64,000 nucleotides of DNA, from assembly GCA_000002445.1 (NCBI GenBank), contig CH464491.1, positions 3,840,001 through 3,904,000 of the forward strand. Direction: 5' to 3'. This document shows positions 3,001 through 49,683 of the stretch, piece after piece (the stretch's first letter is position 1; each line of letters starts with the position of its first letter). The notes beneath the pieces were generated by a model. That model saw only the letters and a list, made by a program, of their open reading frames with translations. It searched no databases and had not been told where the DNA came from. The translations under genes were made by a program, and so were the position numbers. The DNA comes from Trypanosoma brucei. Lineage: Eukaryota.

Positions 3001-6000
3001 CTTTCGATGTCCACGGGACGCGTTCGAAAAAATCCCGAATCACTTTGACAACCAAGTCGGCCTTTTCATTATCGATTCCTCCCTCATGTCCTGTCCTGCT
3101 CTTCCGTGGAGTGCGACGCAGTTCAAACAACAGGTGCTCAACACCCTCTAATACGTTGAATATTTGTTGAACGTGCTCTTCTAAAGAGGTTACGTTAGCC
3201 ATGTGTGTATTCACTTCCATCATGAGATTCTGCGAGTGCAGCGACGCTGCCTTGCAACTTTCCTGCACACCAGTTCTTGACGCCGCTTCAAGCAACAAAT
3301 TTACCTCGGTAACTATGGCGTCTGTATCTTCTTCATCCCCTTTGCTAATTATGTGAATAATCATGTGAGGTAACAAGTAACTTATAAGGGTCTGTTCACC
3401 CTTTGCCATGTTTCGTAGTGCCTTCATCATTTGTCCGAAAACTCCCCTACATCGCAGCACTAGATCGCAAAACCACACGTTGAGCCACGTGTTAATCTCC
3501 ATGCCAGACACATATACGGGGCTTCGGAGTTCCGTTCGCTGCAGTACACAAGCAGTGTACTTAGTCGTGGTATATCCTTCAATCATCTGCCGACAGGAGG
3601 GCTCCAGTTCCATCCACCATGAATAGCGTTGCAACTCCTCTATATGCAGTGCCTCATCATTCTGCAACGTAGGGTAACATTTGGACTCTCGCTCAGCGTT
3701 AGCGAATACGCGCAGCAACTCTTGCACCGCAAACGCGGCACGATCGTGCATTGTTGGGTCGGCAGTGTTAGCAAGAGCGCGCGGGCAATGAACGCTCAGC
3801 AACTCCACGGCGAATTCCCTCCAATGAAGAACTTCAGTCGGATGCGATAGTAATAACTTTCGTGTGGAGGATGACACGCGACCACTTAAGTGAAGAGACA
3901 CCGGCGACAAATTGTTCGAGCCTGTGTGCTGACAGCCGTGACGTAGCATCGATCCGTTTGAGTGTCCAACCGCACCAATCATGCCCACGCAAGCGAGGAC
4001 GTACTGAACATACTCATCGTGCAGCTCGAAGACGCAGTTCAACAAGGTTGGTATAAGTTGAGGATGCTGTCTTGCCGCACAAGTGAGTTCCATCCGACCC
4101 GCAACGTCTGTCGTTGAAAGATACTGGTAAAGGGCACGGACAAATACCTTTTTGCACTTTGTTGAACTACTCTGTACGACTGAAAACAAACCAGTTACAA
4201 TAACGTCTACACTTCCTTTTGCACTTAAGGGAGCGTTTCCCGATTCGTACGTTTGGCATTTGGCGGATGATCCATTGCTTCTTAGCCGACGAATAAGAAT
4301 ATTTGAGCGGCTCATAATTTTAAAGTACAACTCCCAAAAGGGTTCAGACTTTGAACGCTCATACACCACTCGCATCGCCTCATCCAAATGAAGAAGGGCC
4401 TCAATATCGCCTGGCTCCGTTAACGCCTCCATACTTAGTAAGTCAACGACAATAGAGGGTGAGTGTTCACTAAGGTACCTAGGTGTGCATCGACTGAGCA
4501 ACTCACGCCACACGGAACAGACAACACGCACCAACTGGGGTCGGAAGCTGCAGAAGTCTAGTATCGCCGGCAGCTTCGACGCTATCACTGTTGTGTGACT
4601 GCCAAGGCACCGGATAAGGGAGATCAGGCCATACAGCCAACGTTGCACTGTGTGGACCGACACATCGACAGTTTCTGCGGTTACGCGGTTGTTTATGCCA
4701 ACGCACTGTGATACTGTGTCAAGTACGGAGAATACATGCTTGGTTAGTGACCCTCCGTCCACTGTGTCATTGGTAACTTGCATTTCCAACACCAGCTTTA
4801 TGTCAGTAACAGAGGGTCCACATTCTCCAATACACAGAGCCATTTCGACAGCAAGGTCAAACTCTGACAGCCCCCCAACATCATCTTCACGCTTCTCTGC
4901 TTCAATATTGTTTCCTACCGCTACTCGTTTTTGTTCGGTGAGGCTGCCCCTATCCCTTGACAAAACTTCCCGGCCGCCATGAAGGTACATCAGACTTGCT
5001 ATTATAGACCCTAGTGAGCGGTTAACCATGTCGGGTAGATCACTTAACCGCTTTGACAAAAACTGGAGGACCTTCTTGACGTTGTCCAGTCTCTCCGAAG
5101 CACCATTCGCCGCATCACAAAGTAAAATATATGCCATTATCATGGGGAACTTAGACATGAGCGAAAGTGGCTCTCCCAATAGTTCATTGATGCGCAGCAA
5201 CTGCTCTGCACCATCGTCGGCAAGTAAAGAACGCGGAAGAATGTCGTCAAGGCCCCGCATGACAACTTCCCGGACGTTTTTACCCAGAAGGTAACACATA
5301 GCCCTGAAGAAAACGGTGTGAATGATATCGGGATCACATGAAAACAGATAGTCCATAGACCACGAAAAGCGAGACATCACGCCATGAGCCACTTCGAGAG
5401 CCGTCGCCTTTGTAGCATACATGTCCCCATCAAGTTCACAAATGGCTCTGCACACGTTGATAACATCACGGCACACTTTAGTATTGCAGTGATCTCGAAG
5501 TGATGAAATGGTGGTTAAGGAAAGGGAGGACGGTGAGAAATCACGTAGCGTGCCGCTGCGCGGCCCCTGCTGAACAAAACCTTCCCACTCCTCCGTGAAA
5601 GCCGCCCGAAGCGTTTCCAGTTGCCTTAACAGTAGTGAAGGCCCAGTACGCTCATCTGCATTTGAATGTTTAGAGATGGTATCCTTTAAAACAGCGGCCA
5701 CATCAACATTGCCGCTGCGCTCAAGAAGAACACGTAAAGATAACGCCGCGTAGCCAAGACGTATTACCTCGTTCCTGTGGCCGAATGCATGTGCCAGCAC
5801 AAAGTCTGTCGAGGAAGACTTACGTGCACTCAAAAGAACGTTACATAAACACATCAAAGATATGAATGCATCCTGAACGGCTCCGTTATTTGTTGCGCAT
5901 TTATCGGGTACGAGTTGCTGAACCGCGCAAGCTAGATCGTACACTACCGTATCTGTTCTGCCTGTAAGTTCCATTACTGCGGCAACCGGCTGCTTTAACA

Positions 6001-7171
6001 CGAATGGATTTACCTCGTGCTCATTAAGCAACTCACTGCACTGTGCTTTTGGTTTTTCTCCATCATACGGTTTTACTTCAACGACATCGTCATTGGTAGA
6101 AGACGAGGAAACCACTTCCACGCCCGTCGTTGCTGTTTCATCCGATGAAGGCTCAACCTCACAATAATCCGCCTGAGTTGCCCGCATCCTCTCAAAAATA
6201 GCAAAAAGTTCGGTCGTGATACCTAACAACTGATTGAGAAAATGCAGCAACGCGTCATTACCGTACGTGGCACCAGACTTGGCCAAACTTACCGCAAAAG
6301 ACGTAGACCAACCCAGTGCATCAAGCAACTTTTGTGATGCAATGACAGTAGCACTGACTCTGGCGGTATCAAGTGGCCCATCTAACGGGGAAGGAGTAAC
6401 GTCGTTTCCGCTCTGCTGGTAGTTGCGAGTCACATGTTCTCGCCACCCACGAAGTACGCCACTGATTCGCCACATCGCAACGTCTTGCTCACCAGCACGC
6501 ACATTGATCACCTCTACGATGAGGCGAGCGATATTGTTGGTGTAGCTAAAGTCCGTTATGGGAAGTCTACGCACAAGTTCAGCGTACAGTAGTGAATACC
6601 GAAGCGGTGAATCACCGATACGAACTGTAACTTTCCCGGAGGTGAGATCCCGCAGCGAATCCAACACTACCGACTGCATTGTTTCTTTTTCACACCCGAA
6701 ACGGAGAATTATTATAGCAGCGTCCAATATACTACTGTCATACTCTGTTACCAGCTGTTTCCACACACAACGGAAAGTTGCTGCCTCTTCGCACAGTATT
6801 GCAGAAGCATTTGCTTTAGCTAAGAGGTAATCGTTGTTCCCCATAACCGCGCGACGGCGTTGTAATATTTTACGCAGCAATGACGATACAGCATCACGTG
6901 GGAAGAAACACAAAAGTTGGTGTACCACACTTGCCTCCACTGACATATCGTGGAAATAGATGGATTCGGGCGTCACCCGCCTGGTGACCAACGCATCCAA
7001 CACATTTTCCCCAATCCTGTAGAAGGTTTCCTCAAAACGCGGCAACAAATCTTGTTTGCATGAGAGAGCCCTTTTGAGCAACGCCAACAGCAACAAAGCT
7101 GCCTCGCGCTTTTCCGCGTCCACCTGTCCAGTTGAACAGCAAGTAATCGCAGAAACTGTGTCATCGCACAT
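1..7171 (-). CDS. ATR: ATR-like phosphatidylinositol 3-kinase-related kinase (PIKK), 3'-truncated by window edge; N-terminal HEAT/FAT region and C-terminal kinase domain
   Basis: My own minus-strand translation gives an uninterrupted frame of about 2390 codons, from the ATG at 7171 (revcomp of cat 7169-7171; in-frame stop upstream at 7340-7342) to the window start. The ORF track does not list it because it lacks a stop within the window. The C-terminal end carries the catalytic motifs GLGDRHGEN...DFACMFDKG and FRLTQNVVDGMGVLGVDGPFRACC...LLHDPLVEWM, closely resembling the human ATR kinase/FATC-proximal region. The ORF is not listed in the track because it runs off the window. Confidence 0.8.
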   Translation of the reverse strand, partial: MCDDTVSAITCCSTGQVDAEKREAALLLLALLKRALSCKQDLLPRFEETFYRIGENVLDALVTRRVTPESIYFHDMSVEASVVHQLLCFFPRDAVSSLLRKILQRRRAVMGNNDYLLAKANASAILCEEAATFRCVWKQLVTEYDSSILDAAIIILRFGCEKETMQSVVLDSLRDLTSGKVTVRIGDSPLRYSLLYAELVRRLPITDFSYTNNIARLIVEVINVRAGEQDVAMWRISGVLRGWREHVTRNYQQSGNDVTPSPLDGPLDTARVSATVIASQKLLDALGWSTSFAVSLAKSGATYGNDALLHFLNQLLGITTELFAIFERMRATQADYCEVEPSSDETATTGVEVVSSSSTNDDVVEVKPYDGEKPKAQCSELLNEHEVNPFVLKQPVAAVMELTGRTDTVVYDLACAVQQLVPDKCATNNGAVQDAFISLMCLCNVLLSARKSSSTDFVLAHAFGHRNEVIRLGYAALSLRVLLERSGNVDVAAVLKDTISKHSNADERTGPSLLLRQLETLRAAFTEEWEGFVQQGPRSGTLRDFSPSSLSLTTISSLRDHCNTKVCRDVINVCRAICELDGDMYATKATALEVAHGVMSRFSWSMDYLFSCDPDIIHTVFFRAMCYLLGKNVREVVMRGLDDILPRSLLADDGAEQLLRINELLGEPLSLMSKFPMIMAYILLCDAANGASERLDNVKKVLQFLSKRLSDLPDMVNRSLGSIIASLMYLHGGREVLSRDRGSLTEQKRVAVGNNIEAEKREDDVGGLSEFDLAVEMALCIGECGPSVTDIKLVLEMQVTNDTVDGGSLTKHVFSVLDTVSQCVGINNRVTAETVDVSVHTVQRWLYGLISLIRCLGSHTTVIASKLPAILDFCSFRPQLVRVVCSVWRELLSRCTPRYLSEHSPSIVVDLLSMEALTEPGDIEALLHLDEAMRVVYERSKSEPFWELYFKIMSRSNILIRRLRSNGSSAKCQTYESGNAPLSAKGSVDVIVTGLFSVVQSSSTKCKKVFVRALYQYLSTTDVAGRMELTCAARQHPQLIPTLLNCVFELHDEYVQYVLACVGMIGAVGHSNGSMLRHGCQHTGSNNLSPVSLHLSGRVSSSTRKLLLSHPTEVLHWREFAVELLSVHCPRALANTADPTMHDRAAFAVQELLRVFANAERESKCYPTLQNDEALHIEELQRYSWWMELEPSCRQMIEGYTTTKYTACVLQRTELRSPVYVSGMEINTWLNVWFCDLVLRCRGVFGQMMKALRNMAKGEQTLISYLLPHMIIHIISKGDEEDTDAIVTEVNLLLEAASRTGVQESCKAASLHSQNLMMEVNTHMANVTSLEEHVQQIFNVLEGVEHLLFELRRTPRKSRTGHEGGIDNEKADLVVKVIRDFFERVPWTSKVEAAIGIGSSMRALRCLEGQRYLPKVQDVVGKGISLQRIFAALNDRDSSRSLHRMQDHNPEDAAFSHENNGEWVQALQACELVLQQRPQSINHQFTALRCMQQLGQLHLMSRYSQALLKDSPRPSTLQSATWCRQTQLAALQNYANEAAWRLGEWDSVQARQDLPVSLALPMVALNKMLKRRGTLHDVFAACLFQRMKIAPIIRAACRESYAQVYPHVVFLHALTDIESAAVAVATSMAQVSPDPSDPVVSFRATGLRDTKKMQELGPTLQRRASLTETTLDTQELLLSLHRSIFRAFSMEEEVSKTWMSHVKLLRNEGFLEPALSAVKQASLNNKFTSPSYWTTPAKLLYEMNMSKQAIEFAEDAASDESIPPEIRAKLRVLLTRWKQDISYQTPQEVVDSYELALVMHPSEKAHHHLALFYETVYHSVHSSLLQSSSDAAKSTRETFERKEVEAVETYVLLAIKHFGMALQLGCKTVLISLPRMLNLWLNCSSSLASSAAEAYPDSNIVAPSLQKMADMIERFLLVEETKLSPQLLITALPQLLSRIGHESKHVVNIITKTVVNLMKTFPQQCLWQVLPIDRSKQASRGEVARRGILEPYSRLSANEKKLVDNMIIVFKSLIDLCNCSVGELTNGNRSSEPSLAGRPFIQRMEKIFTTTKVLLPTTANLSPNVLHIPSKSGVFAGSATFQEFIPKVNIMSSLQKPKRITVVSSEGEPVSFLCKSRDEPRKDMRMMEIATLMNTFFLSDPEARRKRFALRRYAVSALNDDCAIIEWVNNLVPFRKGVEECYAIDGTGVCISNVRAWKAKVDSGIMKKLDMFERFIFPRAPPVFHIWFYSNFRSHQDWYHARTIYTQATALWSIAGHIVGLGDRHGENLMIDVRTGELMHVDFACMFDKGETLEVPERVRFRLTQNVVDGMGVLGVDGPFRACCQAALRCQMKNKTAVMSVVETLLHDPLVEWMREQSKRQRSFDPKQLIGRVSRRLDGFLDLYNPSKEK

Positions 7172-8860
7172 GTTTGTATTGAATAATGAATTTGTCAACC
7201 ACTCACTTTGACAAAAGGGGGACTCCCTCTGACCAACTTTCCTTGTTTGTCCAGTGTTTTGCTGAGTAAAACTCTTCCCTACGTGGGGAGGAAACAATTC
7301 TTGTCGAACTTCGCACTGCCTCTCCCTCTTCTGATCAACTAACCAACGGAGTAGAGCTAGTTCTTTACTCCACCCCTTCTTCACGTGCGCACGTGACATC
7401 TCGTACACATGTTGCACAAGTGTGTAAAGGATCATCGGCGCATGAAGTTCCTTCACGAGTAAGTCACTCATCAACATCGCGTGAAGTAGTGATGCAGCGG
7501 TGGTGTGAAGCGCGAAGGCCAGGTTTACTCCCTCTTCACCGTTGCGGCGTTCTCCATTACCGACCGTCTCCTTCCACGATTCATACATTGAAGTGGACAA
7601 GCCAGCAGCCACATTGACGGAAAGAAGACTGCAGGCCAAACGAAGGATACTTTTGCGTTCCCTCCACGTCGGCAAAAGAGGAAAGTTTCCTGTTAGCAAC
7701 ATATTTATTACCGTGCAAAAACATTGAGCAACACTAACCACTTCGTAGAGGCTTTCCGCGACAATTGTAGTCCTGAAGAGCTGTCTCGTGTCTCCCCTAA
7801 ATCCCAAAACTTCAGGCAGCCTAAGAACCTGTATCGTACACCGTCCATACCCGCTTCGTCGGCCAGGAACAGTTGTGAATACGAACGCTCCGATGACCTC
7901 CTCCTGGACGATGACTTTAAACAGCTGCAGTAGAAGCGGCTGATAACAATTGTACAAAACGTCAAAAGCGTGGTGAAGTACCTTAAACAAAATATCGCCT
8001 ATGGCGCATGTCTTTGAAGGTATACCCAAGATGGGAAACAGTGAAAAGAGTGTCAAAATGCAGTGAATGAGGATAGCCGGGGCAGCTACGACTATGCGGG
8101 TTACTGTGGCATACATGCGAAGAGTGAGCACCGAATACCTTGCCACACGCTGCGGGTTCCCCAGCATCAATTCGCGCACCTCCCCGGGGAGCTGTGCTAC
8201 ATTTGGTGAAGCAAACCCAACAACATAGGGCCTCAAGTCAAGAACAAGGTTCCACATCTTCCCTTGCAGGGCTTCGCTTGGTTTGTCTGCACCAGCTGCA
8301 ACCTCATCCCTGAGCGCTGCCGCACGTTGCCCAAACTCCTTTAGGCGAAGCCTAAAGGTAGACGAGTCCTCTGTAGAGTCACGAGGCCGCTTCGACGCGG
8401 TGGAAAATCGATTATGTTCGGTCACGTTACCCGGCGATGTGACAATGGTAACAACGTTTTCCGCATCTATCTCCATCCACTTGCAGCTGAAAATCGAATG
8501 CAAAACAGCCTATAACGCTTTGGGCAACTTCCTTACAGTTATTTACCCTCCTGTTCATGGTAGAAAGATTGACGTTAAAGGTAATTAAAATGACGAGAGT
8601 AATAAGTGATAAGGACAGACATAATATCCACTTGTACCACGATGCGAAAATCAGGGTGGGTAGCAAAACTGATTAATATTTGCCAAAACTGCGGTGTCCT
8701 CTCCCCTTCCTCATATGCAACTTCCCGTGACCATTAGTATTTGTATGCTCTAACGCGCAACCGCAATCACGGTGCTGCACATTCTTCGCACTGTAGACAT
8801 GCAACCGAAAGGGATACGGAAGAATGTATAGCGCAGAGGCTGTGCATACGCAAAAAGGGT

Positions 8861-11683: not shown

Positions 11684-11858
11684 CCATAAGCAACCCCTAA
11701 GGTATCTCGACGACCGCCTACCAGGATGTCAAATTCTTCGCGTCAGCGCTAGCAGCAAGAGTGACGCGAGTAGGTGGGAAAAAGTCGGTGTAAAAAACAA
11801 TGTATAGGAGAGGGGAAATGAATACACAACAGAAAATTCAGTGCCCAGAGCAACACAG

Positions 11859-11860
<2 letters not shown>

Positions 11861-11900
<40 letters not shown>
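11861..11900. repeat. (AT)20 microsatellite
   Basis: Direct read. Confidence 0.95.
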
Positions 11901-11902
<2 letters not shown>

Positions 11903-12618
11903 AAGTTGTACGTACAACGCACCATATTGAAAAGTATGGGAAATTCAAACATGGTGAGTAACACCTTCTCGTGTTGCGGGCAGCCATATTGCCGCGGAAC
12001 CGATCCCAACGGACATCAAGCGCACAATGGTTTCTGTGTCTCTGAAAAAGAGATGCATCACCCTTCACTGTATCATTGACTGTGGTCGAAGTCCTCTTCT
12101 GCGAAATACGGATCGTGAACGCAGTCCCATAACTGCAAGCGGGAAGAGAATACCCGCGCACACTAGCACCATCCCCATTATGTATCCTACAATTGAGAGC
12201 TCTAGAGTCGCCCCTGCCATGGCGGCAATCTGCGGTCCTCGTCAACTTCACGATGAGCCTGAGGGCGGAGGGAAGGGAATGTGCCAAATCTACGAACCAC
12301 AACTTTCAGCTACTTACAGGATAGAATGGAAAAAAAAGATAAGTGTCCGAGTGCTCGAAGAAGTTCACTAGTTAATACAGAATGCAAAAGAAGTCATCAC
12401 GAATTCTTTCCCCTTCCCACCTTTCTTCTTTCTTTCTTTGAGACATTTTTTAAAAGATCCCTCGGCATACATCGGCAGGTGTCATTTTCTGAAATCCAAA
12501 TTACACACTTAAACTGGGTTAATTGCTGATTACTCGTTATTGCACAGAAATAGTGATGAACCGACAGTGCGGAGAACCCAAAATAGTGGCGAAGACGCCA
12601 CTAATCGCCTCTCTTCAC

Positions 12619-17603: not shown

Positions 17604-17641
17604 TTACTTTCTTCTGTGAATAACGAACAAACCAAGAAGTA

Positions 17642-17710
17642 CTGTAAAAGACAGGAAACACAAATTAAAAAACAAAACAGGAAGAAACAAATAGTTATAA
17701 AAGAAACCAG
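17642..17710 (-). promoter_or_regulatory. polypyrimidine tract plus candidate trans-splice acceptor AG for the FtsH gene
   Basis: The minus strand reads TTTCTTTTATAACTATTTGTTTCTTCCTGTTTTGTTTTTTAATTTGTGTTTCCTGTCTTTTACAG, followed about 35 nt later by the ATG. This is the typical trypanosomatid SL-addition signal. Confidence 0.4.
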
Positions 17711-18427
17711 GGGCACTGTTAAAATTACTAACGACCATTTGCTATCGAACAGTAACGAAACTTACCACCTACCCCTTAGGATCCAATTTAAATAAACGCT
17801 TCTCTCTGTCGGCTGGACAGAGTCATGAAAAAACAATATATATATATATTTTCCATCTCCAACTGACACAATTAATGTCTGGATCCTGTCGCTAATTCAA
17901 ACTGTGAAACCAATTTTATGGTATAATAGTACACGGCGAATATTAGCGGCATTCTTCCGTCTTCTGAGGCTCTAATTTACCATTGTACCTAACCTCCATG
18001 CTAGTTTTGAAAACATAAAAAAAAAGAGCATGTCACAAACCGAGTTGACACGCGTAAAAAATGTGCAAAAATGTGCCTTTAGATATGAAAGAAGAACAAA
18101 AAGAGAGTAAGAGAAAGATATGCAAGGGCGTTTTTTTAAAGCAAAGAACAAAAATAGCTCAGTTTTACTGGGACAATGAAACACACAAACGCTAATAGGG
18201 GTAAAAATTGGGGCGAAAAACGAAAGGAACCAATAAAGTATATATTTAGTCATGAAAGTTTTTTCTTAAAGGAAAAGAAGAAAGAAAGGAAGGGGTTCAC
18301 GTGAAGTAAAACACATTCAGTATATAAGAATCCTTCACATCTTCCTATAGCGCACAAAAAGTAAAGTACTTCGGAAGAAAAGAGAAAAAAGATGAAAGAA
18401 AAGTTTCCAGTATGAAGAAGGTCCTTC

Positions 18428-19930
18428 TCAGCTAATAACCTCAACAGAAGAACATGATGACGTCCCCCCGTCTTCGACGACAATAATTGGGTCATTATCG
18501 CTCTCAATCGGATCGCTTTGACTTACAGATAATACGGCGCCCTCAGGCTGTGAACAGAGAGGTGTGGTTAATTGCCTGATATCTGGTGGGGACGCTAATG
18601 GATTGAGCCTGGAGAATAACTTCCTTTCACAGAACCTTAACCTCCTTAAACAAATGCCGCATCCTTGACTGCTATCACAGCATGCCGGTTCACCTGGAGT
18701 ATATACGCGGCACGTTACTCGATAATCACTAAAATCAACTGGTTTTAATAACGCCAGAGCCTCCCCTCCTCCGGCCGCTGCCCCATTGGGAGCACCACCG
18801 CACCACCGACTTGCAAGCGAGTTTCTACAGCGGCTGATGCTACCGGTGCTATCTGCAGTGGCACAACACCACATCATCGCCTCTTCACCGTATTCAACAC
18901 CTTCCGACTTAATGAGTCCATGGTTATTGTCGAAAAGAAATCGTGTCACTGGGCTCGATAGCATCCGCAGGATCTCCTCTTGCTCACGGCTACGCCGGGG
19001 GTCCATGTAAGGGTTCACAAACTTTGCAAAAAAGGGGAAACGTCGATTGTCGCAAATTGGTTTGGAGTTAGATATATCATACGGAAAAATCAGTGGCTCC
19101 ACGTTAATCCTTGAATAGTCGAACTCGCCAAACTTAAAGTCTTTTGTAAGTGACTTTGGTGGACCATCGCGGATCCACTCCACTACTTGGAGAAGTTTCG
19201 GGTGTGCCCATCTCCAAAACTCGTCACTGCGGTAAACTCGCCATGCAACAACTTGGCAAACTGGTTTATCCAGATAGACAAAGAAGTCGCATACATCCAC
19301 ATCGGCAATCGCCATCTGACCTTGCATTTGACAAAGGTACTGTTGAGGTATTCCAAAGGGGTGACATAAGCGTTTGGTGCTGTCGTATAATGCGTAATAG
19401 GGGGATTTGATTTCCAACAATCTTGCCAAGCGTTTCGATGTGGAAGCCGTGGGTGAATCGGGAGACGGTGTGGTGGCTAAAGAATCATCCCTTACACTCT
19501 TTGACCTGAACGGAATTCGGATAGATATTGGATTCTCTTGATGTTTCCCATTCTTTACACCCATCAACTTGGTTTCATTTCCCTTTCGCGATGGCGACAT
19601 TAACTGCGAAGATACCGGTGGCGCGTCCTCAAAGACACGTCCATCAGGAGAGCAACCAAGAAGCCTTCCTTCCAAAAGATAGAAGCCACCGTCACTAACA
19701 GCTGTAGAGGTTAATAATTCATACAGCGCACGCGACTTTGGCTCAGTGTTTATACCGTGATCAGTAATTGCGTTGCCTGTAAATTCCAACTCCGTGCCAA
19801 CGATATTTCGGACATAATCCACAAAGTGAACAATGTGTCCGCTAAGCCCGAGAGCCATGCCAAATTGCGATGCGGTGAGCCCAAAAGGCACCTCTTTTTT
19901 CCATTCTAGTTTCTTCCTGGGTTGGGCCAT
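18428..19930 (-). CDS. YqaJ/lambda-exonuclease-like PD-(D/E)XK nuclease domain protein with C-terminal Cys-rich region (500 aa)
   Basis: Motifs appear in canonical order: LTASQFGMALGLSG (motif I), GCSPDGRVF (catalytic D), LLEIKSP (E-x-K) and YLCQMQGQM (Q-rich motif). A low-complexity insertion of about 85 aa lies between the D and ExK motifs. The C-terminus has a CC...C...C...CC...C-x-C-x2-C cluster. The track ORF begins at a GTG at 19969. The first ATG is 19930 (MAQPRKK). Confidence 0.7.
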   Translation of the reverse strand: MAQPRKKLEWKKEVPFGLTASQFGMALGLSGHIVHFVDYVRNIVGTELEFTGNAITDHGINTEPKSRALYELLTSTAVSDGGFYLLEGRLLGCSPDGRVFEDAPPVSSQLMSPSRKGNETKLMGVKNGKHQENPISIRIPFRSKSVRDDSLATTPSPDSPTASTSKRLARLLEIKSPYYALYDSTKRLCHPFGIPQQYLCQMQGQMAIADVDVCDFFVYLDKPVCQVVAWRVYRSDEFWRWAHPKLLQVVEWIRDGPPKSLTKDFKFGEFDYSRINVEPLIFPYDISNSKPICDNRRFPFFAKFVNPYMDPRRSREQEEILRMLSSPVTRFLFDNNHGLIKSEGVEYGEEAMMWCCATADSTGSISRCRNSLASRWCGGAPNGAAAGGGEALALLKPVDFSDYRVTCRVYTPGEPACCDSSQGCGICLRRLRFCERKLFSRLNPLASPPDIRQLTTPLCSQPEGAVLSVSQSDPIESDNDPIIVVEDGGTSSCSSVEVIS

Positions 19931-20211
19931 TTGGTGTTCAGCTAACGCCGCCACTGGCACGTGTATCACAAAAAAGAAAAGAAAAGAAGATGCTGTTCAT
20001 TCAACAAACAACACCTTTGGCACCGAGCCTTAGGATAATACTGACCAATCACCATCAGAAAGGAAACTAATCACAACTGTAAGACGTGTTTACTAATAAA
20101 AGAGATTAATGGCCAAACGATAATCAGTAGACTGTTTTCCTCTTCAACTACTTCCGAACGCCTCCACGACTAATCGTTGTAAAACCGTAATTAAAGACTA
20201 GACACGCCACA

Positions 20212-20237
<26 letters not shown>
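20212..20237. repeat. (AT)13 microsatellite
   Basis: Direct read. Confidence 0.95.
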
Positions 20238-20242
<5 letters not shown>

Positions 20243-21208
20243 TACGAATAAGTAGTATAAATATATATTGTGTGGAATATGTGTAACATTTTCCCCTAAA
20301 CGGTTGCACGGTATCGTTGGCGCGTCATCAAAATGAAATATTCCGCTCTGGCAGTACACGGCATTGCCTTTTTTTGTTATGTTTCCACAGATACAAACAT
20401 GAGCATGTGTCGTCATTAATTCCTCCTCAACTAAACTATGGAGTAACACATTGTTTTGAACATAATAACAGTAGGAGGAGGAAGTAGGAGGAGAACCAAA
20501 ACTACGGATGCAAATATATATATATATAATAAAAGATGTATGAGAAAATAAACACTAAAAGAATAATTTTTTTTTAAAAAAAAGAAGAAAAGGAAGAGGA
20601 AAAAAGACATAATGAGAGGATGGGCTCCGAATTGGAGTGGCATATTGAGATAGATGATGAAAAACATGAGGACAACAGCCTCTACAAGGATTGGAAAAGG
20701 AAACAAAAAAGAAAAAAAGAAACAACAACAACAACAGCGACGCCAAAAGGGGGAAAAAAAAATGATATAGTAACGGAGAGAAGGGAATGGAAAGTGAACC
20801 ATTCCATAAGGTAGTGCAAAGTCGTTGTGAAAAAATACAAAAGGTTAAGAGGGAGGGGAGAAGAAAAAAAAGAGAGAGAAAACAACAACAACTACCGACC
20901 TTCACCCGTGCCGTCTGAAGTACAAGATTAAACCAATCAAAAAGAAAAAAAGAGGGATTGTCGGGTCTCCACAAAGTGGAAAAGACAAACTTTTATTCTC
21001 CTGCGTATATTTATTTTTTTTTCGGAATATTTTCAGTATTCGTCTTTTTTTTTTTCGTTTACCCCCAAAAAATTTTTTTCCTTTTATTCTTTTCTTTACC
21101 TGCTTCATTCCTATCCTCCTAATTTGATCAAAAGATGTCCCTTTAGATCACCTTTTTTTTGTTTTCTTTTGCATATGTATGTAAATAAATATATTTAAAT
21201 AAATATAA

Positions 21209-21230
21209 ATATATATATATATATATATAT
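21209..21230. repeat. (AT)11 microsatellite embedded in AT-rich AAATA-repeat context
   Basis: Direct read. Confidence 0.9.
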
Positions 21231-23224
21231 CATTTGTCTTTCATTTCCATTACTTCTTTTTTCTTTTTTTATAAAAAAAAGGGGGTTGCGTCACTGCTCC
21301 ATTTCTTCACGTTCTTGCGGTCCTCCTCTTGAGGTGATACGAAATAAAAAAGAGTTCATATCTGAAGGAGGAATTGCTGCGTGGACAATCAAATGAAGAA
21401 AATACGGGGAATCCACACGATACGCAGAAATGACAAAAAATGAATTAAAAAAAAAAAAGAAAACACTCCAACACTACAAAAAGTGAAGAAAGTTAAAAAA
21501 ATGATAAAAAAAACAACAAAAACTCCCACATGTTCACATCAGGCCGCAGAAATTCGAGTCGAGTTCAGTTAACTGTAGTCGAATATGTGTCTGTATGTCT
21601 GTAAATATGTCTGTAAGTATGCTGTTCTTTTTTTTTCCTCTTTGGGATTCCGTTGTGCCTTATTCGGATATCATGAATCCAACACATTCCGTCACTACTC
21701 CACTCCTTTAGAATCAAGTGGCGGTCAAAATAAATTATTTATATATTATAATAATTATTATTATTAAAGAAAAAAAGGAGGAGTTGAGGAATGACACGAG
21801 AGTAAAGAAACGGAAAACATGAAATAATGACGCCGTTTTTCCCCCCCCCCCCATCAGATGTGTGACTGATGCACTCCCGTATTGACCTCAAACAGAAGAA
21901 GTGGAGGAAAAGAGAAGAGGGGAGAAAAGAAAAAAAGATCAAAAATCAAAAAACAAAAGGAAAAGGAAATGAAAATAGAAATGGGAAAAGAAGAAGAAAG
22001 GAAAGGGAATAGTGTAAAGGGTGCTTCACGCGCACTCTTTTGCGATCCTTTCCTTTCCTTTACTTTTTCTTTTCCCATTTCTTTTTTCTTCTATGCGACA
22101 AACAGCAATGAATTTATAAATTATAGGCTGCTCTGTTATAAAATGGTGGGAATGAAGGGGGAGTGGGGGAAAAAAAAAGAACCGATAGAAAGTGGAGGGT
22201 AAAAGGGTTTTAAAAAAAAAAATGTGGCCATAATAAATACAGAGGGAAGAGAAGGGTAAAAATGTAATAAATAAGTAAAATATTTTTATTAAAAAAAAGC
22301 CAAAGCAAAACAAACCATAAAGAAACTAACAGAAAAGAAAAGAACAAAAGAATGACATATACCGAAATAAGTCTAAAGGAAAATGAAATCAAAATAGAAA
22401 AAAAAACAAAAAAATTTTTTTTGAAAAAAAAATTACTGGCCACAATTCAAAATTTTTTTTTCTTTTTTGTTTACCCCCCCCCACTTCTTTGGCACCTTCA
22501 TGACTCTATCGAAACCTTGTGAGCAGAAATTCTCACATTTTTTGTTTTATTTTCCTTCTCTAAACGTGCGGAAGATGTGAGTGAAAGGAGTAACGAAGAG
22601 GGTGGACGGAAGTTTCTTATTATTGTTATTACAACTTTCCTCTCCTATTTTTAAGGTATTTTTTTTTTAATAATCTCATTTTCTTTAAAAATAAAAAAAA
22701 ATCGATTACCACCGCATTTGCTTTCATCATGTTTCTGTCTTTGTTTCTTTTACTTTTTTATTTGCGTATGAGAGTATGCATGTATTATTTTCTCCTCTAT
22801 CATATTTTTCTTCTTTCTTTCTTTGCTTTAGTTTTGGTTCTATGGTAATTCCGTTTTCGCTCGACTCACTTTAAGTCCCTGTTTCCCTTACCCTCCGGCA
22901 ACTTGGAGGGGAACGAAGCAAGAAACATAAAACCAATTATTTGATATTTATTTGTTCCGTCTCCATACGCACCCCCCTCTGCTCCACATTCTAACCGCTA
23001 TCGTTGTCTATTTATTTATTTTTGTTTTTTTTGTTTTTCATTAATCATCATTCACTCTTTTATCCATTCAATGTTGTTTTCTTGGAGGGAGGAAAGGTAG
23101 AAAGAAGGAAAGAAGGAGGGAAATTTTTACTTGTTTTTTTTTCCTCTTTTTTGTCAAGTAAACTCCAACGCCACCAGTCAGCAGCGTGAGAATGTGAGTA
23201 AAACACTGTTGAATTGTTGCGACC

Positions 23225-24343
23225 TTATTTGTACGTTGGAGGGCGGAGGCCACTCTTCTGGTACTGCGTTTTCTCCTCCCGTGACATGGCTCCAGCTGGA
23301 ACAACATTCTTCACGGAATTGTTCACGTTCTGAAGCCATATGCGGACACCGAAGATGCGGAACAACTCACTGTTCAGCTGCCGGAAATCAATAGAGCGGG
23401 ATGCCTCGTAGTAGAAACTGATCTTCTGTTGATCGAATTGATACTCGCAATCAACGACATCCATGTCGAGCCCAAGGCGCGCTACAATCTCGCGGCATGT
23501 CTTTAAGGCCAGATTCTCATTGCGCGAGATCTCCCCGAAAAGGCGCTCCACTTCCTCCTCCGTTGCCACGCGCAATACTCGACCCATTTCACCCTTCATC
23601 CGCACCACATTCGTCACATTGCCGTCAAAACTCTCTTCACGGACGATGCAGCCCTTCTCAGCATTCCATTCACTGCATTGGTTGACAACACCACAATCGT
23701 GGCCGCGGTCTCCCTGTACAATAGCGTACTGTCCGGGTGTGATGAAGGAACTGCTCACGCACCGCTTCATGCGTTGGCATTTGAATTCGACCAACAAAAT
23801 GAAGCAGTCGTGTCTCTTCCAGCTGTTGTGATCATCTCCACGAGTGGCACTCGAGGACTGTGGGTTTGATAGGGCCCTCTTGTTATCGGTAGCTTTTATG
23901 TGCTCCTCCTCCTTGTCCCTTGTGGAAACCATCGGAGTCGTAACGGTGTCTATCGTCCCACTGGTAAGTGGATCATGGGTAGGAGATTCAAAGAACTGAG
24001 GGGCAGAGTGCGTAGCGTGTGGCATGGCACTACTCAGCATCGAAACAAAGTTGGGCTCCTCTTCAGGAAAGGCGGGATGCACAGCTTCGATTGTTGAGGT
24101 TTGTGATGTAGAGGTTAGTAACTCAGGTGCGGTGGGTAATTGCCTTTGCTGAACCAGGTGCAGCATAAGTCCATAAATAGCATCCACTTTACGGGAGAGT
24201 TGGTCCAACTTTTCTGCGATGCCTTCATCAGTAGTAAATACCGGTGCCGTCATTCGCGCCGCTACCTCCATGTCAGATTCATGCATGTGATGAGGATGCA
24301 CCTGACGCTTGCTTTGGGTCACGTTAGTCAGATCGTGGAACAT
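23225..24343 (-). CDS. PSP1 C-terminal domain-containing protein (372 aa)
   Basis: The C-terminal half (QYAIVQGDRGHDCGVV...VATEEEVERL...CREIVARLGLDMDVVDCEYQFDQQKISFYYEASRSIDFRQL) matches the PSP1-C conserved region. The first ATG is 24343 (MFHDLTNV). The track N-terminus runs through a (TAA)n/(TTA)n stretch and is spurious. Confidence 0.65.
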   Translation of the reverse strand: MFHDLTNVTQSKRQVHPHHMHESDMEVAARMTAPVFTTDEGIAEKLDQLSRKVDAIYGLMLHLVQQRQLPTAPELLTSTSQTSTIEAVHPAFPEEEPNFVSMLSSAMPHATHSAPQFFESPTHDPLTSGTIDTVTTPMVSTRDKEEEHIKATDNKRALSNPQSSSATRGDDHNSWKRHDCFILLVEFKCQRMKRCVSSSFITPGQYAIVQGDRGHDCGVVNQCSEWNAEKGCIVREESFDGNVTNVVRMKGEMGRVLRVATEEEVERLFGEISRNENLALKTCREIVARLGLDMDVVDCEYQFDQQKISFYYEASRSIDFRQLNSELFRIFGVRIWLQNVNNSVKNVVPAGAMSREEKTQYQKSGLRPPTYK

Positions 24344-28890: not shown

Positions 28891-29289
28891 CCCTCCAGCG
28901 CCTCCTTTACATACACTTCTCTTTTTCTGCACTTATCGGCCTACTACGCGAATGGTAACTGTGCAACAGCTACTATTAACAACCACCTGTTTAGGCGGTT
29001 ACATGTGTATACGTGCACGTATAAGTAAGTGAAATTAAATGAAGGATAAGTTCTGACCAATTTAGAAAGAAAAATCTTTTTTGCGATAGCAATCATGGGA
29101 GGCAAATACATTAGCAGCTCTACGTATGCGGAGATACGAAACTCGCACAACCGTCACCGTGAATAATCGATATGATGTAAATGGGTTCTTAACAGTCGAA
29201 AGTGTGCGTGTGTGTGAGAAATAATAGTACCAGAAGAAGGAAGCGTTGGTTATGTTTCTCAGGAAATGATTTCGTAACAGCTCTTGTGC

Positions 29290-29311
29290 ATATATATATA
29301 TATATATATAT
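29290..29311. repeat. (AT)11 microsatellite
   Basis: Direct read. Confidence 0.95.
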
Positions 29312-30352
29312 TCCACGGAATGAAATAACTGCCCTTGCCGCGGTCACCTCACCACTCTGCACCTACCGCCACTTCCATGAATATATTATAAACAAATTCG
29401 CGCTTCACACACTTATATTACGGTGCCTCATTAACGAGCACAGTGGGTTAGCACCCGTGTGCAGGTTGGGGAAGAGGACGAGGTCCAAACCATCTCTCCT
29501 CATAACAAAACTGATCATGTCTTTCTTTTTATTCTTACTTTTCCACTTTTCTTTCCTATCTTCCTTCCTCGATCCAATATGGGAGAGATAGCAGAATAAA
29601 AAAAAGTCTGTCACGCAGTCACAACGACAATACAGCACAACCAACCAAACCCGACAAAAAATGTAAATAAATAAAGGAACGCTATCCATACGGGTACCTG
29701 ATATGCTGAAGGAAAAGGTAATCCACAAGTAACAGCACACACACAAAAAAAAACGATAAAAAAAAGAGAACATTGCAGCATAGATAAGTAAAAAAAGGGG
29801 GGAGAAACATTCAGTGTTGAAAGATCCTAATCAACACGTGGTTACCACAACCTATTGCAACTCTGATGCAACATCGCACCTCCCCTCTCGCTAAAATAGA
29901 AAATATACCGTAAATTATCGTAATGAAGAATATTTCCGCCAGGCACATCGCCTTCATCCAAACTCGACAATTTGTGCATCCCTTTACTTTGTCGTTGCAC
30001 GCATTCAACAAATTTTCTCATTTTAGACGAGTGGAAGGACAGAGGAGGGAGGCGACATTAGTTGATGGTGCCTTTCCATCCAAAACTATACTCACCCCCT
30101 TTCCTACCAGTTCTATATCACAAAATGTTGCATTATTAATTGAGCCCCTTTCACCTTATTGTACATATTGCAACTGTTTACACAGCAGCATGGTCCGAAC
30201 ACTAAGTATAATAAAAAGCGTTACCTACTGCATTCCCCTTATTATTATTATTTTTCTCTTTTACTTTTGCTGATATTCTGCTAACTTGTCTTTGCCGTCC
30301 GCATCTACAAATTTTTATTTTGATAATCTGCGTTGCACCAACACACCGAGTC

Positions 30353-49360: not shown

Positions 49361-49683
49361 CACTAGGAGCGATCTCTTTTCCTTAGAGGGGAAAACACAC
49401 ACACACAAAAAAAAAGTAAACTGGAAGGGGAGGATAAAATGCGGGTGTAACGAAGCTCTTTTCCCCCTTTTAAAGAGACATAACAGACAACTTACAGTTG
49501 CAATGAGGAAACGATGCTTAACTGCTCAACGTCCCAAGCGGACATCAATGCATGAAGGCAGCACAAAATATGCAATACTACAGACCTTATTATAGTAATC
49601 CTTTCAGCTCCTCCAGGAGGTAAAAGGTAACTGAAACATCCAACAAAGTTTAGTATTGCTGTTATTTTTTTTTTAAGTTTATC

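What the first reader, a model, noticed from the sequence alone, without database searches (positions are those of the whole stretch)
20000..23224. Unusually long (3.2 kb) gene-free low-complexity spacer with an internal strand-composition switch
Most spacers in this window are 0.5-1.5 kb. This one is 3.2 kb and contains no credible ORF on either strand. Its coding-strand (minus) composition flips at about 22440: it is pyrimidine-rich downstream and purine-rich nearer the PSP1-domain gene stop. The spacer holds AT-rich U-rich/AUUUA-like blocks (around 21181-21240 and 23005-23040 as seen on the mRNA strand), homopolymer C12 and C9 runs, and a degenerate tgtctgtaa(a/g)tatg triple repeat at 21585-21626. 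In trypanosomes, long 3'UTRs are the main regulatory layer, for example developmental regulation through RBPs such as ZFPs, PUFs and RBP10. PSP1-C proteins are themselves RNA-associated. The interval could also hide a small ncRNA (snoRNA cluster) or a degenerate retroposon relic.
Basis: seen in the sequence. Interest (0 to 1): 0.5.

Follow-up and report, generated by a model that had tools for sequence, protein, structure and literature searches.

The report
Long regulatory 3'UTR of trypanosome PCD1
The 3.3 kb gene-free stretch is mostly the already annotated 2.5 kb 3' untranslated region of a cell-cycle-regulated Trypanosoma brucei mRNA (PCD1), at a spot where related parasites still carry one or two genes; it is real but of a known kind.

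Summary
The stop-to-ATG spacer (window 19931-23224, 3294 bp) is the longest of 23 in the window, has no credible ORF, Pfam relic, tRNA or Rfam family, and its purine/pyrimidine blocks far exceed shuffles. There are at least 8 switches, not one.

The upstream gene is Tb927.11.14750 (PCD1), a PSP1-C protein whose mRNA and protein cycle with the cell cycle. A curated public annotation gives it a 2537-nt 3'UTR (about window 20688-23224; genome median 388 nt). The remaining ~750 nt is intergenic sequence plus the 5'UTR of the YqaJ-domain gene.

The UTR fits the published 'P5-UTR' class: long, with complementary polypurine, polypyrimidine and palindromic tracts.

New here:
- Two CAUAGAA cycling-sequence elements lie in the UTR. 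The same element recurs in the 3' region of the orthologue in all seven other Trypanosoma species examined and in Phytomonas.
- A 128-nt hairpin (z = -6) is the strongest local fold in the 64 kb, and its 5' base abuts the second element.
- Leishmania and six other Trypanosoma species have one or two genes of an ancient kinetoplastid family between these two genes. No trace remains here.

No snoRNA or protein-coding retroposon relic was detected. Interest is modest.

The parts
23225..24343 (-). CDS of the upstream gene, Tb927.11.14750 = PCD1 (PSP1 C-terminal domain protein, 372 aa). Context for the spacer.
   Evidence: Pfam PF04468, E = 2.8e-27. The published phosphopeptide KEEEHIKATDNKRALSNPQSSSATRGDDHNS (Tb927.11.14750 S159; PMC6907760 supplement) is present in the translation. 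An identical protein is encoded in T. equiperdum.
20688..23224 (-). Annotated 3'UTR of PCD1 (2537 nt). The low-coordinate end is approximate, +/-1-2 nt plus possible strain indels.
   Evidence: Trenaman et al. 2024, Suppl. Data 1: the UTR is Tb927_11_v5.1:3920226-3922762, minus strand. The offset to the window was derived from three gene stops. The annotation was curated with nanopore direct RNA reads carrying SL or poly(A).
22838..22844 (-). Cycling-sequence element 1, CAUAGAA(C), 380 nt after the stop codon.
   Evidence: CAUAGAA occurs twice, 0.11 expected, P = 0.007. Read directly on the + strand as TTCTATG.
22088..22095 (-). Cycling-sequence element 2, the canonical octamer CAUAGAAG, 1129 nt after the stop. 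Its last base is the first paired base of the hairpin.
   Evidence: position in the fold.
21963..22090 (-). Long imperfect hairpin. In the mRNA the 5' arm is purine-rich, the 3' arm is pyrimidine-rich, and the loop is ~40 nt.
   Evidence: Arms are 39-44 nt and 85% complementary. MFE is -53.4 against -32.8 +/- 3.4 kcal/mol in shuffles, z = -6.0. It is the strongest GC-adjusted 170-nt fold of the whole window. It is identical in T. equiperdum. Rfam gives only sub-threshold miRNA-precursor-like hits on both strands.
22241..22822 (-). Purine-rich block (22822-22557) followed in the mRNA by a pyrimidine-rich block (22503-22241).
   Evidence: Nested 26-33 bp stems appear in the whole-UTR fold. On its own the segment is not better than shuffles: z = -1.1.
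21836..21852 (-). G12 run in the mRNA (C12 on the + strand), predicted to pair with the C-rich tract at 22157-22174. A second G9 run lies at 22474-22482.
   Evidence: (G5+ tracts: 16 observed, 1.6 expected).
21172..21240 (-). AU-rich, largely self-complementary block, (AU)n / UAUUUAU x3.
   Evidence: UAUUUAU: 5 observed, 0.5 expected.
21588..21625 (-). Short degenerate tandem repeat (period 12, 2.8 copies, overlapping an 8-nt period). No function assigned.
20432..20995 (-). ~560 nt that is pyrimidine-rich on the mRNA strand. It holds the annotated poly(A) site (~20688) and the polypyrimidine tracts and AG dinucleotides expected to drive trans-splicing of the next gene.
   Evidence: MPRA fragment peak_4396 (window ~19764-21174) is flagged as containing the downstream splice site, and it raised reporter expression: log2FC 4.7, FDR 0.052.
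19931..20687 (-). Intergenic sequence plus the 5'UTR of Tb927.11.14740. It includes (AT)13 at 20212-20237 and a second short polypyrimidine tract at 19965-19995, just upstream of the ATG.
   Evidence: By subtraction from the annotated UTR; sequence. The splice site actually used is not known here.
18428..19930 (-). Downstream gene, a YqaJ-like exonuclease-domain protein. Tb927.11.14740 by position: IDs run in tens from Tb927.11.14700 to 14750 across the window genes.
   Evidence: Pfam PF09588, E = 1.8e-18.

Best explanation
What it is. About 2.5 kb of the interval (window ~20688-23224, minus strand) is the 3'UTR of the mRNA for PCD1 (Tb927.11.14750). PCD1 is a PSP1-C-domain, mRNA-associated protein. 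Its transcript and protein are among the most robustly cell-cycle-regulated in T. brucei. The remaining ~750 nt holds the polyadenylation and trans-splicing signals and the 5'UTR of the next gene, Tb927.11.14740. This part is shown by a published curated annotation and by the sequence.

How it most likely works (inferred).
1. Two cycling-sequence elements (CAUAGAA at +380, CAUAGAAG at +1129) give the mRNA its S-phase periodicity, as in other kinetoplastid S-phase mRNAs.
2. The alternating A-rich polypurine, U-rich polypyrimidine, G/C and (AU)n tracts make it a 'P5'-type UTR. Polypurine tracts promote translation. Pairing with complementary polypyrimidine tracts can mask them or other motifs, in a way sensitive to temperature and AGO1.
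3. The clearest structural element is the 128-nt hairpin at 21963-22090, which abuts the second cycling element.

History (shown by synteny; the mode of loss is inferred). The interval sits where the kinetoplastid ancestor had at least one gene of an uncharacterised membrane-anchored family between the PSP1 and YqaJ genes. That gene is gone without trace in the T. brucei group. This probably explains why the spacer is so long.
For: Gene identity.
- Pfam PSP1, and an exact match to the Tb927.11.14750 phosphopeptide.

UTR extent and reporter data.
- Annotated 3'UTR: 3920226-3922762, 2537 nt. The annotation is manually curated from SL- and poly(A)-containing nanopore reads.
- Genome-wide mean is 622 nt and median 388 nt.
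- The MPRA fragment spanning the distal UTR plus downstream signals was enriched under positive selection, with zero counts under negative selection.

No gene or ncRNA in the interval.

Cell-cycle regulation of PCD1 mRNA and protein.
- PMC6907760 and PMC5986242.
- PMC10212563 lists three PSP1 homologues as cycling in all four datasets. One of them, Tb427_110165900, I take to be PCD1 from its position in the ID series; this mapping was not checked.

Cycling elements.
- CAUAGAA occurs twice, 0.11 expected, P = 0.007.
- CAUAGAR occurs 2 times here against 1 in the 17.1 kb of all other spacers.
- The 3' region of the orthologue holds CAUAGA(A/G) 108-204 nt after the stop in T. cruzi, T. theileri, T. 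grayi, T. melophagium, T. rangeli and T. conorhini. Four of these (T. cruzi, T. theileri, T. grayi, T. melophagium) have a second copy. Per-species P is 0.0005-0.06.
- In Phytomonas it lies at +58.
- Archer 2011 found this motif enriched in S-phase clusters.

P5 features.
- A8+, U8+ and G5+ tracts are all enriched.
- The UTR has the highest joint density of purine and pyrimidine runs among the window's spacers.
- Block structure far exceeds shuffles.
- (AU)n palindromes are present.
- PCD1 protein rises at 40 C: log2FC 0.34, FDR 3e-4.
- The class is defined.

Structure.
- Hairpin z = -6.0, the top fold of the window.
- Whole UTR z = -2.7.

Gene loss.
- One or two family genes lie between PSP1 and YqaJ in T. 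cruzi, T. theileri, T. grayi, T. melophagium and T. conorhini. Leishmania has one.
- The family reaches Trypanoplasma and beyond. None of the 32 of 33 family representatives looked up, plus the 5 word-index hits, is from a salivarian trypanosome.
- tblastn and a family HMM find nothing in the spacer, against 409 bits in the T. cruzi control.
Against: - The UTR boundary comes from a published table, not from reads I could inspect. The chromosome-to-window offset is off by 1 nt between genes, so the window may not be identical to TREU927 v5.1.
- Several long internal polypyrimidine tracts could support alternative splicing or polyadenylation, or a separate non-coding transcript. I could not check this.
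- In T. brucei the cycling elements are not alignable to those of other species and lie further from the stop. Two heptamers in 2.5 kb give only P ~0.01-0.02 on their own.
- The large purine/pyrimidine fold-backs are not thermodynamically better than shuffles (z = -1.1 and -1.4). Only the one hairpin is robust.
- The temperature effect on PCD1 protein is small, and I did not see its mRNA or ago1-null data.
- The middle MPRA fragment had zero counts and the proximal one only a weak signal.
- Phytomonas also lacks the family gene at this position, and T. vivax and T. congolense loci could not be fetched. The timing of the loss, and in-situ decay versus deletion plus expansion, remain open.
Confidence: 0.75

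Rival explanations
1. The interval is not one UTR. Internal polypyrimidine tracts (mRNA sense, e.g. 22445-22114, 22045-21862, 21539-21339) act as trans-splice acceptors. PCD1 mRNAs would then mostly end early (~0.8-1.2 kb), and the distal part would be released as one or more SL-capped, polyadenylated long non-coding RNAs, of which T. brucei has more than a thousand.
For: - Long pyrimidine-rich blocks followed by AG occur repeatedly on the mRNA strand.
- lncRNAs lying between or next to coding genes are documented in T. brucei (titles and abstracts).
- The middle MPRA fragment (window ~21291-21883) gave no counts in either arm, so there is no functional readout for that part.
Against: - The curated annotation, built from SL- and poly(A)-containing nanopore reads, draws a single 2537-nt UTR to ~20688.
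- No gene ID lies between Tb927.11.14740 and 14750 in any table seen.
- lncRNA supplement tables were not available, so this rival is untested rather than refuted.
Confidence: 0.12
2. The extra length is functionally inert. After the resident gene or genes died, the sequence drifted into low-complexity, slippage-prone DNA that happens to be transcribed as part of the PCD1 mRNA. The purine/pyrimidine blocks, the hairpin and the motifs are by-products of mutation bias, not selected elements.
For: - No trace of the lost genes remains.
- The differences from T. equiperdum are almost all microsatellite or homopolymer indels.
- The big fold-backs are no more stable than shuffles.
- Spacer length (3294 bp) is close to the gene-bearing intervals of T. 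grayi, T. theileri and T. melophagium (3566, 3870 and 4180 bp). This is compatible with in-situ decay.
Against: - The cycling element is kept in the 3' region of the orthologue in every Trypanosoma examined.
- The host mRNA is tightly regulated.
- The hairpin is a 6-sigma outlier.
- Tract-rich long UTRs as a class have measured effects on translation and temperature response.
- The distal fragment boosts a reporter.
Confidence: 0.1
3. The interval hides a small structured RNA gene (snoRNA cluster, or a hairpin processed into small RNAs) or a degenerate retroposon.
For: - One very stable hairpin gives sub-threshold matches to many miRNA-precursor models.
- T. brucei has an active RNAi pathway, and AGO1 affects transcripts with such UTRs.
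Against: - No Rfam family reaches its gathering score anywhere in the window.
- The hairpin hits score 42 bits at best against thresholds of 62-100, occur on both strands, and are to plant and animal families. They are generic hairpin matches.
- There are no tandem gene-sized repeats of the kind that trypanosome snoRNA clusters form.
- There is no RT or endonuclease relic, and no dispersed repeat apart from (AT)n.
- Known siRNA-producing inverted repeats have arms of 422 bp or more and lie elsewhere; the chromosome 11 one is at 4.22 Mb.
Confidence: 0.03

Closest known systems
P5-UTRs / polypurine-polypyrimidine regulatory 3'UTRs of T. brucei (Trenaman et al. 2024, PMC11405848; Bravo Ruiz et al. 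2026 preprint, 10.64898/2026.01.20.700697)
   Same: - Long 3'UTR: 2537 nt against a mean of 622 nt.
- Rich in A-rich polypurine tracts, U-rich polypyrimidine tracts, G and C tracts and palindromic (AU)n.
- The complementary tracts sit on the same RNA.
- The protein is modestly up at 40 C.
- A fragment of the UTR scored positive in the reporter screen.
   Different: - Not named as an exemplar in either paper.
- I have no mRNA-level temperature or ago1-null data for it.
- Apart from one hairpin, its predicted tract-tract pairing is no more stable than in shuffled sequence.
Cycling-sequence (CAUAGAAG) S-phase mRNAs of kinetoplastids (Crithidia TOP2, DHFR-TS, KAP3, RPA1; T. brucei S-phase clusters of Archer et al. 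2011, PMC3069104)
   Same: - One canonical octamer plus one heptamer in the UTR.
- The element is conserved in the orthologue's 3' region across Trypanosoma and Phytomonas.
- The host mRNA is periodic.
   Different: - Function of the elements in this mRNA is untested.
- The gene encodes an RNA-associated PSP1-C protein rather than a DNA-replication enzyme.
- The T. brucei copies lie further from the stop (+380, +1129) than in other species (+108 to +204).
Other very long T. brucei 3'UTRs of regulators (e.g. PUF9 Tb927.1.2600 ~4.0 kb and Tb927.1.1500 ~7.9 kb in the same annotation table; RBP10 is cited in the literature as having a long regulatory UTR)
   Same: A multi-kb, low-complexity 3'UTR on an mRNA for an RNA-associated, tightly regulated protein.
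   Different: No RBP10-type UA(U)6 enrichment and no PUF9 motif here. The documented regulation is through the cell cycle rather than through development.
Endogenous siRNA-producing inverted repeats of T. brucei (Tschudi et al. 2012, PMC3447711)
   Same: A fold-back on a Pol II transcript in an RNAi-competent organism.
   Different: Those repeats have essentially identical arms of 422-10,011 bp. This one has ~40-nt arms at 85% complementarity and is not among the seven listed loci.

Membership tests
Trypanosome mRNA 3'UTR | Lies directly downstream of a CDS on the transcribed strand of a polycistronic unit, with no intervening gene | tested here: met
   All ORFs of 150 aa or more that are not nested in another gene are on the minus strand. 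There is no credible ORF, Pfam relic, tRNA or Rfam family in 19931-23224.
Trypanosome mRNA 3'UTR | Experimentally supported poly(A) site that defines the 3' end | tested here: met
   Taken from a published curated annotation rather than from reads: UTR 3920226-3922762 for Tb927.11.14750, curated with SL/poly(A) nanopore reads.
Trypanosome mRNA 3'UTR | Polypyrimidine tract and AG acceptor for the downstream gene just beyond the poly(A) site | tested here: met
   Pyrimidine-rich mRNA-sense tracts at 20762-20690 and 20612-20574 are followed by AG. The MPRA table flags a downstream splice site in the fragment covering this region.
P5-UTR class | 3'UTR longer than average | tested here: met
   2537 nt against a mean of 622 and median of 388 nt.
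P5-UTR class | Enrichment of potentially complementary A-rich/U-rich and G-rich/C-rich tracts and of palindromic sequence | tested here: met
   - A8+ tracts: 18 observed, 3.2 expected.
- U8+ tracts: 23 observed, 7.1 expected.
- G5+ tracts: 16 observed, 1.6 expected.
- C5+ tracts: 4 observed, 1.5 expected, P = 0.09.
- Highest joint purine-run and pyrimidine-run density among the window's spacers.
- (AU)n palindromes present.
P5-UTR class | Temperature-responsive expression | tested here: inconclusive
   Protein log2FC 40 C vs 34 C is +0.34, FDR 3.1e-4. The effect is small, and the RNA sheet was not available.
P5-UTR class | AGO1 dependence of the response | not testable with these tools
   Per-gene ago1-null data were not in the stored part of the supplement.
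Cycling-sequence (CS) regulated S-phase mRNA | One or more copies of CAUAGAAG (consensus (C/A)AUAGAA(G/A)) in a UTR | tested here: met
   CAUAGAAG at 22095-22088 and CAUAGAAC at 22844-22837. P = 0.007 for two heptamers.
Cycling-sequence (CS) regulated S-phase mRNA | Periodic mRNA abundance through the cell cycle | tested here: met
   From the literature only. The PCD1 transcript is stated to be cell-cycle regulated, and PSP1 homologues are cell-cycle regulated in four datasets. The cluster assignment in Archer 2011 could not be retrieved.
Cycling-sequence (CS) regulated S-phase mRNA | Conservation of the element in orthologous UTRs | tested here: met
   CAUAGA(A/G) lies at +108 to +204 in six other Trypanosoma species and at +58 in Phytomonas. 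It is absent in the one Leishmania locus.
Cycling-sequence (CS) regulated S-phase mRNA | The element is required for cycling and is bound by CSBP-type proteins | not testable with these tools
   Needs reporter mutagenesis and RNA-protein binding assays.
snoRNA cluster / other known ncRNA | Match to a curated RNA family, or tandemly repeated snoRNA-sized units | tested here: not met
   0 matches at gathering score. Only sub-threshold hairpin-type hits. No gene-sized tandem repeats.
Retroposon relic (ingi/RIME/DIRE/SIDER) | Remnant of RT/endonuclease coding sequence, or a dispersed repeat copy | tested here: not met
   No Pfam family on the coding-strand frames (the + strand frames were not scanned). 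No similarity to the rest of the window apart from (AT)n.
Retroposon relic (ingi/RIME/DIRE/SIDER) | The conserved ~79-nt 5' signature of these elements | not tested
   No reference sequence was available in the tools, so short non-coding relics (RIME/SIDER-like) are not excluded.
Pseudogene of the ancestral resident gene family | Detectable protein-level similarity to the family found at this position in other kinetoplastids | tested here: not met
   tblastn gives no hit in the spacer at E<10. The family HMM scores 2 bits or less, against 409 bits for the T. cruzi control.
siRNA-producing long inverted repeat | Near-identical arms of hundreds of bp and AGO1-bound small RNAs | tested here: not met
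   Arms are 39-44 nt and 73-85% complementary. The locus is not among the seven published ones. Small-RNA data are not testable here.

The most novel reading that the evidence does not exclude
The conserved cycling-sequence elements in the PCD1 3'UTR form an autoregulatory or cross-regulatory loop. PCD1 is a PSP1-C protein, and its orthologues are annotated as the CS-binding phosphoprotein 'RBP33'. PCD1, or its paralogues CSBPII-33/45 and PCD4, would bind CAUAGAA in PCD1's own mRNA. The 128-nt purine/pyrimidine hairpin that abuts the second element would act as a structural gate, sensitive to temperature or AGO1, that exposes or hides it. That would link cell-cycle periodicity to the 'zipper' control proposed for P5-UTRs. 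The T. brucei-specific extra length would have been freed by loss of the neighbouring genes and recruited for this control.
Probability: 0.1. Interest if true: 0.6.

Novelty: already known. Interest (0 to 1): 0.3.

Why it matters
Trypanosomes control almost all gene expression after transcription, so long 3'UTRs are where regulation lives.

This UTR belongs to one of the few mRNAs found to cycle with the cell cycle in every dataset. That makes it a compact test case for two open questions:
- how the old CAUAGAAG cycling element works in T. brucei, where the CSBPII complex appears to have diverged;
- whether polypurine/polypyrimidine pairing really gates access to such motifs.

The synteny result also gives a concrete example of how a gene-loss site can end up as an over-long UTR.

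None of this changes the basic picture. The UTR itself is already annotated and has been screened, and it fits a published class.

Tried and rejected
- snoRNA or other ncRNA: Rfam at gathering score on the whole window and at E<=5 on the interval gave only generic hairpin hits. ARAGORN found nothing. Rejected.
- Hidden protein gene or pseudogene: ORF listing, Pfam on the three coding-strand frames with stops masked, tblastn of the syntenic genes and a family HMM on six frames were all negative. My first Pfam attempt with DNA references failed because of stop codons.
- Dispersed repeat or retroposon: self-BLAST against the rest of the window found only (AT)n.
- Named regulator motifs: the PUF9, PUF-core, RBP10 and (UUA)4 motifs are absent or at chance.
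- Large R/Y fold-backs as stable structures: predicted in the whole-UTR fold, but z is only -1.1 and -1.4 when tested alone, and 22130-22510 gives z = +0.2. I kept only the hairpin.
- What the lost gene family does: Pfam gave only noise, the PDB profile search gave 0 hits, and the AlphaFold model was poor (pLDDT 41). No fold search was run. Function unknown.
- T. vivax and T. congolense loci: their PSP1 proteins are not on record for contigs, so the loss could not be dated within Salivaria.
- Literature tables:
  - The lncRNA list of Guegan 2022 and the ZC3H28 tables are not held.
  - Antwi 2016 and Archer 2011 supplements have no entry under the new gene ID or 'PSP1'.
  - The Archer cluster and any lncRNA overlap therefore remain unchecked.

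Full report
**Observation**

All genes in the window lie on the minus strand, as in a trypanosomatid polycistronic unit. The gene ending at 23225 carries a PSP1 C-terminal domain (PF04468, E = 2.8e-27). The next gene downstream (18428-19930) has a YqaJ-like exonuclease domain. The stop-to-ATG spacer is 19931-23224, 3294 bp. The other 22 spacers are 16-1866 bp.

GC is 0.34 against 0.47 for the window. The longest ATG ORF on the coding strand is a 123-aa F/L-rich translation of a pyrimidine tract. The three coding-strand frames hit no Pfam family at E<=0.1. There is no tRNA and no Rfam family at gathering score in the whole window.

The composition switch at ~22440 is real, but it is one of at least eight purine/pyrimidine alternations. 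The variance of windowed purine fraction is 0.0284, against 0.0036 in dinucleotide shuffles (maximum 0.0060 of 300). That exceeds every other spacer in the window.

There is one error. The 23005-23040 block is A-rich on the mRNA strand, not U-rich or AUUUA-like, and AUUUA overall is at chance.

**Identity of the gene and of the interval**

The protein is 100% identical to a T. equiperdum protein and 55-64% identical over its full length to its orthologues in other Trypanosoma species. The published phosphopeptide of Tb927.11.14750 (S159, KEEEHIKATDNKRALSNPQSSSATRGDDHNS) occurs in the window's translation. The gene is therefore PCD1.

Benz and Urbaniak (PMC6907760) report that PCD1 changes about 6-fold at protein level and up to 25-fold at the phosphosite across the cell cycle, and that its transcript is cell-cycle regulated. 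Crozier et al. and Briggs et al. place PSP1 homologues among the few genes periodic in every transcriptomic and proteomic dataset.

Supplementary Data 1 of Trenaman et al. 2024 (PMC11405848) lists the 3'UTR of Tb927.11.14750 as Tb927_11_v5.1:3920226-3922762 on the minus strand, 2537 nt. That annotation was curated by hand from nanopore reads carrying the spliced leader or a poly(A) tail.

I derived the chromosome-to-window offset from the stops of Tb927.11.14700, Tb927.11.14730 and Tb927.11.14750. The three agree to within 1 nt. The UTR then corresponds to window ~20688-23224. The remaining ~750 nt (19931-20687) is intergenic sequence plus the 5'UTR of Tb927.11.14740.

The genome-wide mean 3'UTR is 622 nt and the median 388 nt. 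This UTR is therefore about 6.5 times the median. UTRs of 3-8 kb occur in the same table, so it is long but not unique.

In the same screen three fragments overlap this UTR:
- The fragment covering the distal 486 nt of the UTR plus the downstream processing signals was enriched under blasticidin (positive) selection, with zero counts under ganciclovir: log2FC 4.7, FDR 0.052.
- The proximal fragment gave a weak signal.
- The middle fragment gave no counts.

**Anatomy of the UTR**

Read 5' to 3' on the mRNA, the UTR starts with ~780 nt that is purine (A)-rich. It then alternates between pyrimidine-rich and purine-rich blocks, and ends in a ~560-nt pyrimidine-rich zone. That last zone contains the annotated poly(A) site and the polypyrimidine/AG signals for the next gene.

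A8+, U8+ and G5+ tracts are all strongly over-represented. The UTR also has the highest joint density of purine and pyrimidine runs of 10 nt or more among the window's spacers.

This is the architecture described by the Horn laboratory. A-rich polypurine tracts raise translation efficiency, and U-rich polypyrimidine tracts may mask them. Long UTRs rich in polypurine, polypyrimidine and palindromic tracts ('P5-UTRs') show AGO1-dependent temperature responses. In that preprint's proteome, PCD1 rises slightly but significantly at 40 C: log2FC 0.34, FDR 3e-4.

**Structure**

The inverted repeat at 21963-22090 folds into a ~45-bp imperfect hairpin. Its MFE is -53.4 kcal/mol against -32.8 +/- 3.4 for shuffles, z = -6.0. 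It is the strongest GC-adjusted 170-nt fold in the whole 64 kb, and it is identical in T. equiperdum.

Rfam's permissive scan hits it with many plant and animal miRNA-precursor models. The hits are on both strands and reach about half the gathering score or less, so they are generic hairpin matches.

A fold of the whole UTR is somewhat more stable than shuffles (z = -2.7). It draws nested purine-pyrimidine fold-backs whose turns coincide with the composition switches, including the one at ~22440. Tested alone, those fold-backs are not better than shuffles: z = -1.1 and -1.4, and z = +0.2 for 22130-22510. I therefore treat only the hairpin as established.

**Motifs**

The heptamer CAUAGAA occurs twice, 0.11 expected, P = 0.007. 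One copy lies at +380. The other lies at +1129 as the canonical octamer CAUAGAAG, and its last base is the first paired base of the hairpin. CAUAGAR occurs only once in the 17.1 kb of all other spacers in the window.

This is the kinetoplastid cycling sequence, which Archer et al. found enriched in T. brucei S-phase mRNA clusters.

The 3' region of the orthologue contains the same element in every other Trypanosoma species I could fetch:
- T. cruzi: +108 and +245.
- T. theileri: +149 and +339.
- T. grayi: +204 and +377.
- T. melophagium: +176 and +354.
- T. rangeli: +144.
- T. conorhini: +128.

The first copy in each lies in a small conserved block, (AU)CAUAGA(A/G)GCA. Per-species P values are 0.0005-0.06. 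Phytomonas has CAUAGAAG at +58. The one Leishmania locus has none.

The T. brucei copies are not alignable to the others and lie further downstream. Assigning them to the same functional element is an inference.

**History of the interval**

In T. theileri, T. melophagium and T. grayi, two paralogous genes lie between the PSP1 and YqaJ genes (~300 aa and ~370 aa, with an N-terminal hydrophobic segment and no Pfam domain). T. cruzi and T. conorhini have one.

A profile of the family finds 33 representatives among 1.84 billion proteins. They include Leishmania, Lotmaria, Novymonas and Trypanoplasma borreli. None of the 32 looked up, nor the 5 word-index hits, is from T. brucei, T. congolense or T. 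vivax. The Leishmania member sits in the same place, between PSP1 (followed by a NUDIX gene) and YqaJ. The gene is therefore ancestral at this position.

The T. brucei-group window and Phytomonas lack it. A family HMM scores 2 bits or less on the six frames of the spacer, against 409 bits on the T. cruzi control.

The interval is 3294 bp here. In the species with two genes it is 3566-4180 bp. That is compatible with decay in place, but it does not prove it.

Two other syntenic genes are also missing from the window, and there the spacers are short. They are an ArfGAP, and a 361-393 aa gene that lies between YqaJ and the M41 peptidase in other species.

**Conclusion**

The side suggestions (snoRNA cluster, retroposon relic, RBP10/PUF/ZFP targets) find no support.

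The object itself is already annotated, has been assayed in a genome-wide screen, and fits a published class. What this analysis adds is the conserved cycling element, the outlier hairpin next to it, and the gene-loss origin of the site. These are useful leads but not surprising. The main open rival is alternative processing or an embedded lncRNA, which needs read-level data I could not access.

Noticed in passing
window 2-8509 (minus strand): The first 8.5 kb shows no listed ORF because it is a single open frame of more than 2836 aa that runs off the left end of the window. Its C-terminal tail (…HDPLVEWMREQSKRQ…) looks like a PI3K-related kinase. It is not a gene desert.
   Followed up: partly
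window 28891-30352 and 17604-18427; loci L002-L004, L007-L009: Two further syntenic genes present in other Trypanosoma species are absent from the window. One is an ArfGAP gene between the phosphomannose isomerase gene and the 252-aa gene. The other is a 361-393 aa gene between YqaJ and the M41 peptidase, which also has a 232-aa relative in Phytomonas. tblastn finds no trace of either. This block has lost four genes in the T. brucei lineage.
   Followed up: partly
L004:12079-14395, L003:12192-14695, L008:8106-10995, L002:11919-13022, L006:10001-11767: The family lost from T. brucei is an uncharacterised, apparently membrane-anchored protein family. It is conserved from Trypanoplasma to Leishmania and present in other protists. 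It has no Pfam or PDB match. There is a faint methyltransferase-like hint (Methyltransf_31, E = 0.14) and an alternating beta-alpha pattern in a poor AlphaFold model.
   Followed up: partly
window 11806-12025 and 49506-49675: These are the next strongest GC-adjusted local RNA folds in the window (z about -3.7 and -3.2). Both lie in intergenic spacers. The first contains an (AT)n palindrome similar to those at 20212-20237 and 21209-21230.
   Followed up: no
L005:13369-14397 (Phytomonas sp. Hart1): The YqaJ-domain gene is not called in the Phytomonas record. tblastn finds it in two pieces (residues 3-195 and 249-336), which suggests a pseudogene or a missed gene.
   Followed up: no
window 15570 versus 23225: The offset between window and Tb927_11_v5.1 coordinates differs by 1 nt between the stops of Tb927.11.14700/14730 and the stop of Tb927.11.14750. 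The window is therefore either not exactly TREU927 v5.1 or carries a 1-nt indel. It differs from T. equiperdum by 0.7%, mostly homopolymer and microsatellite indels.
   Followed up: partly
(annotation of orthologues): Orthologues of PCD1 in T. cruzi, T. grayi, T. theileri, T. rangeli and T. conorhini are annotated as 'cell cycle sequence binding phosphoprotein (RBP33)'. In T. brucei the name CSBPII-33 is given to a different gene, Tb927.11.7140, which is itself described as 'RBP45' in some tables. The naming of this family is inconsistent across databases.
   Followed up: no
window 29405-29773 (minus strand): A 122-aa ATG ORF sits in the spacer from which the ArfGAP gene is missing. It has no similarity to ArfGAP by tblastn and was not otherwise examined.
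   Followed up: no
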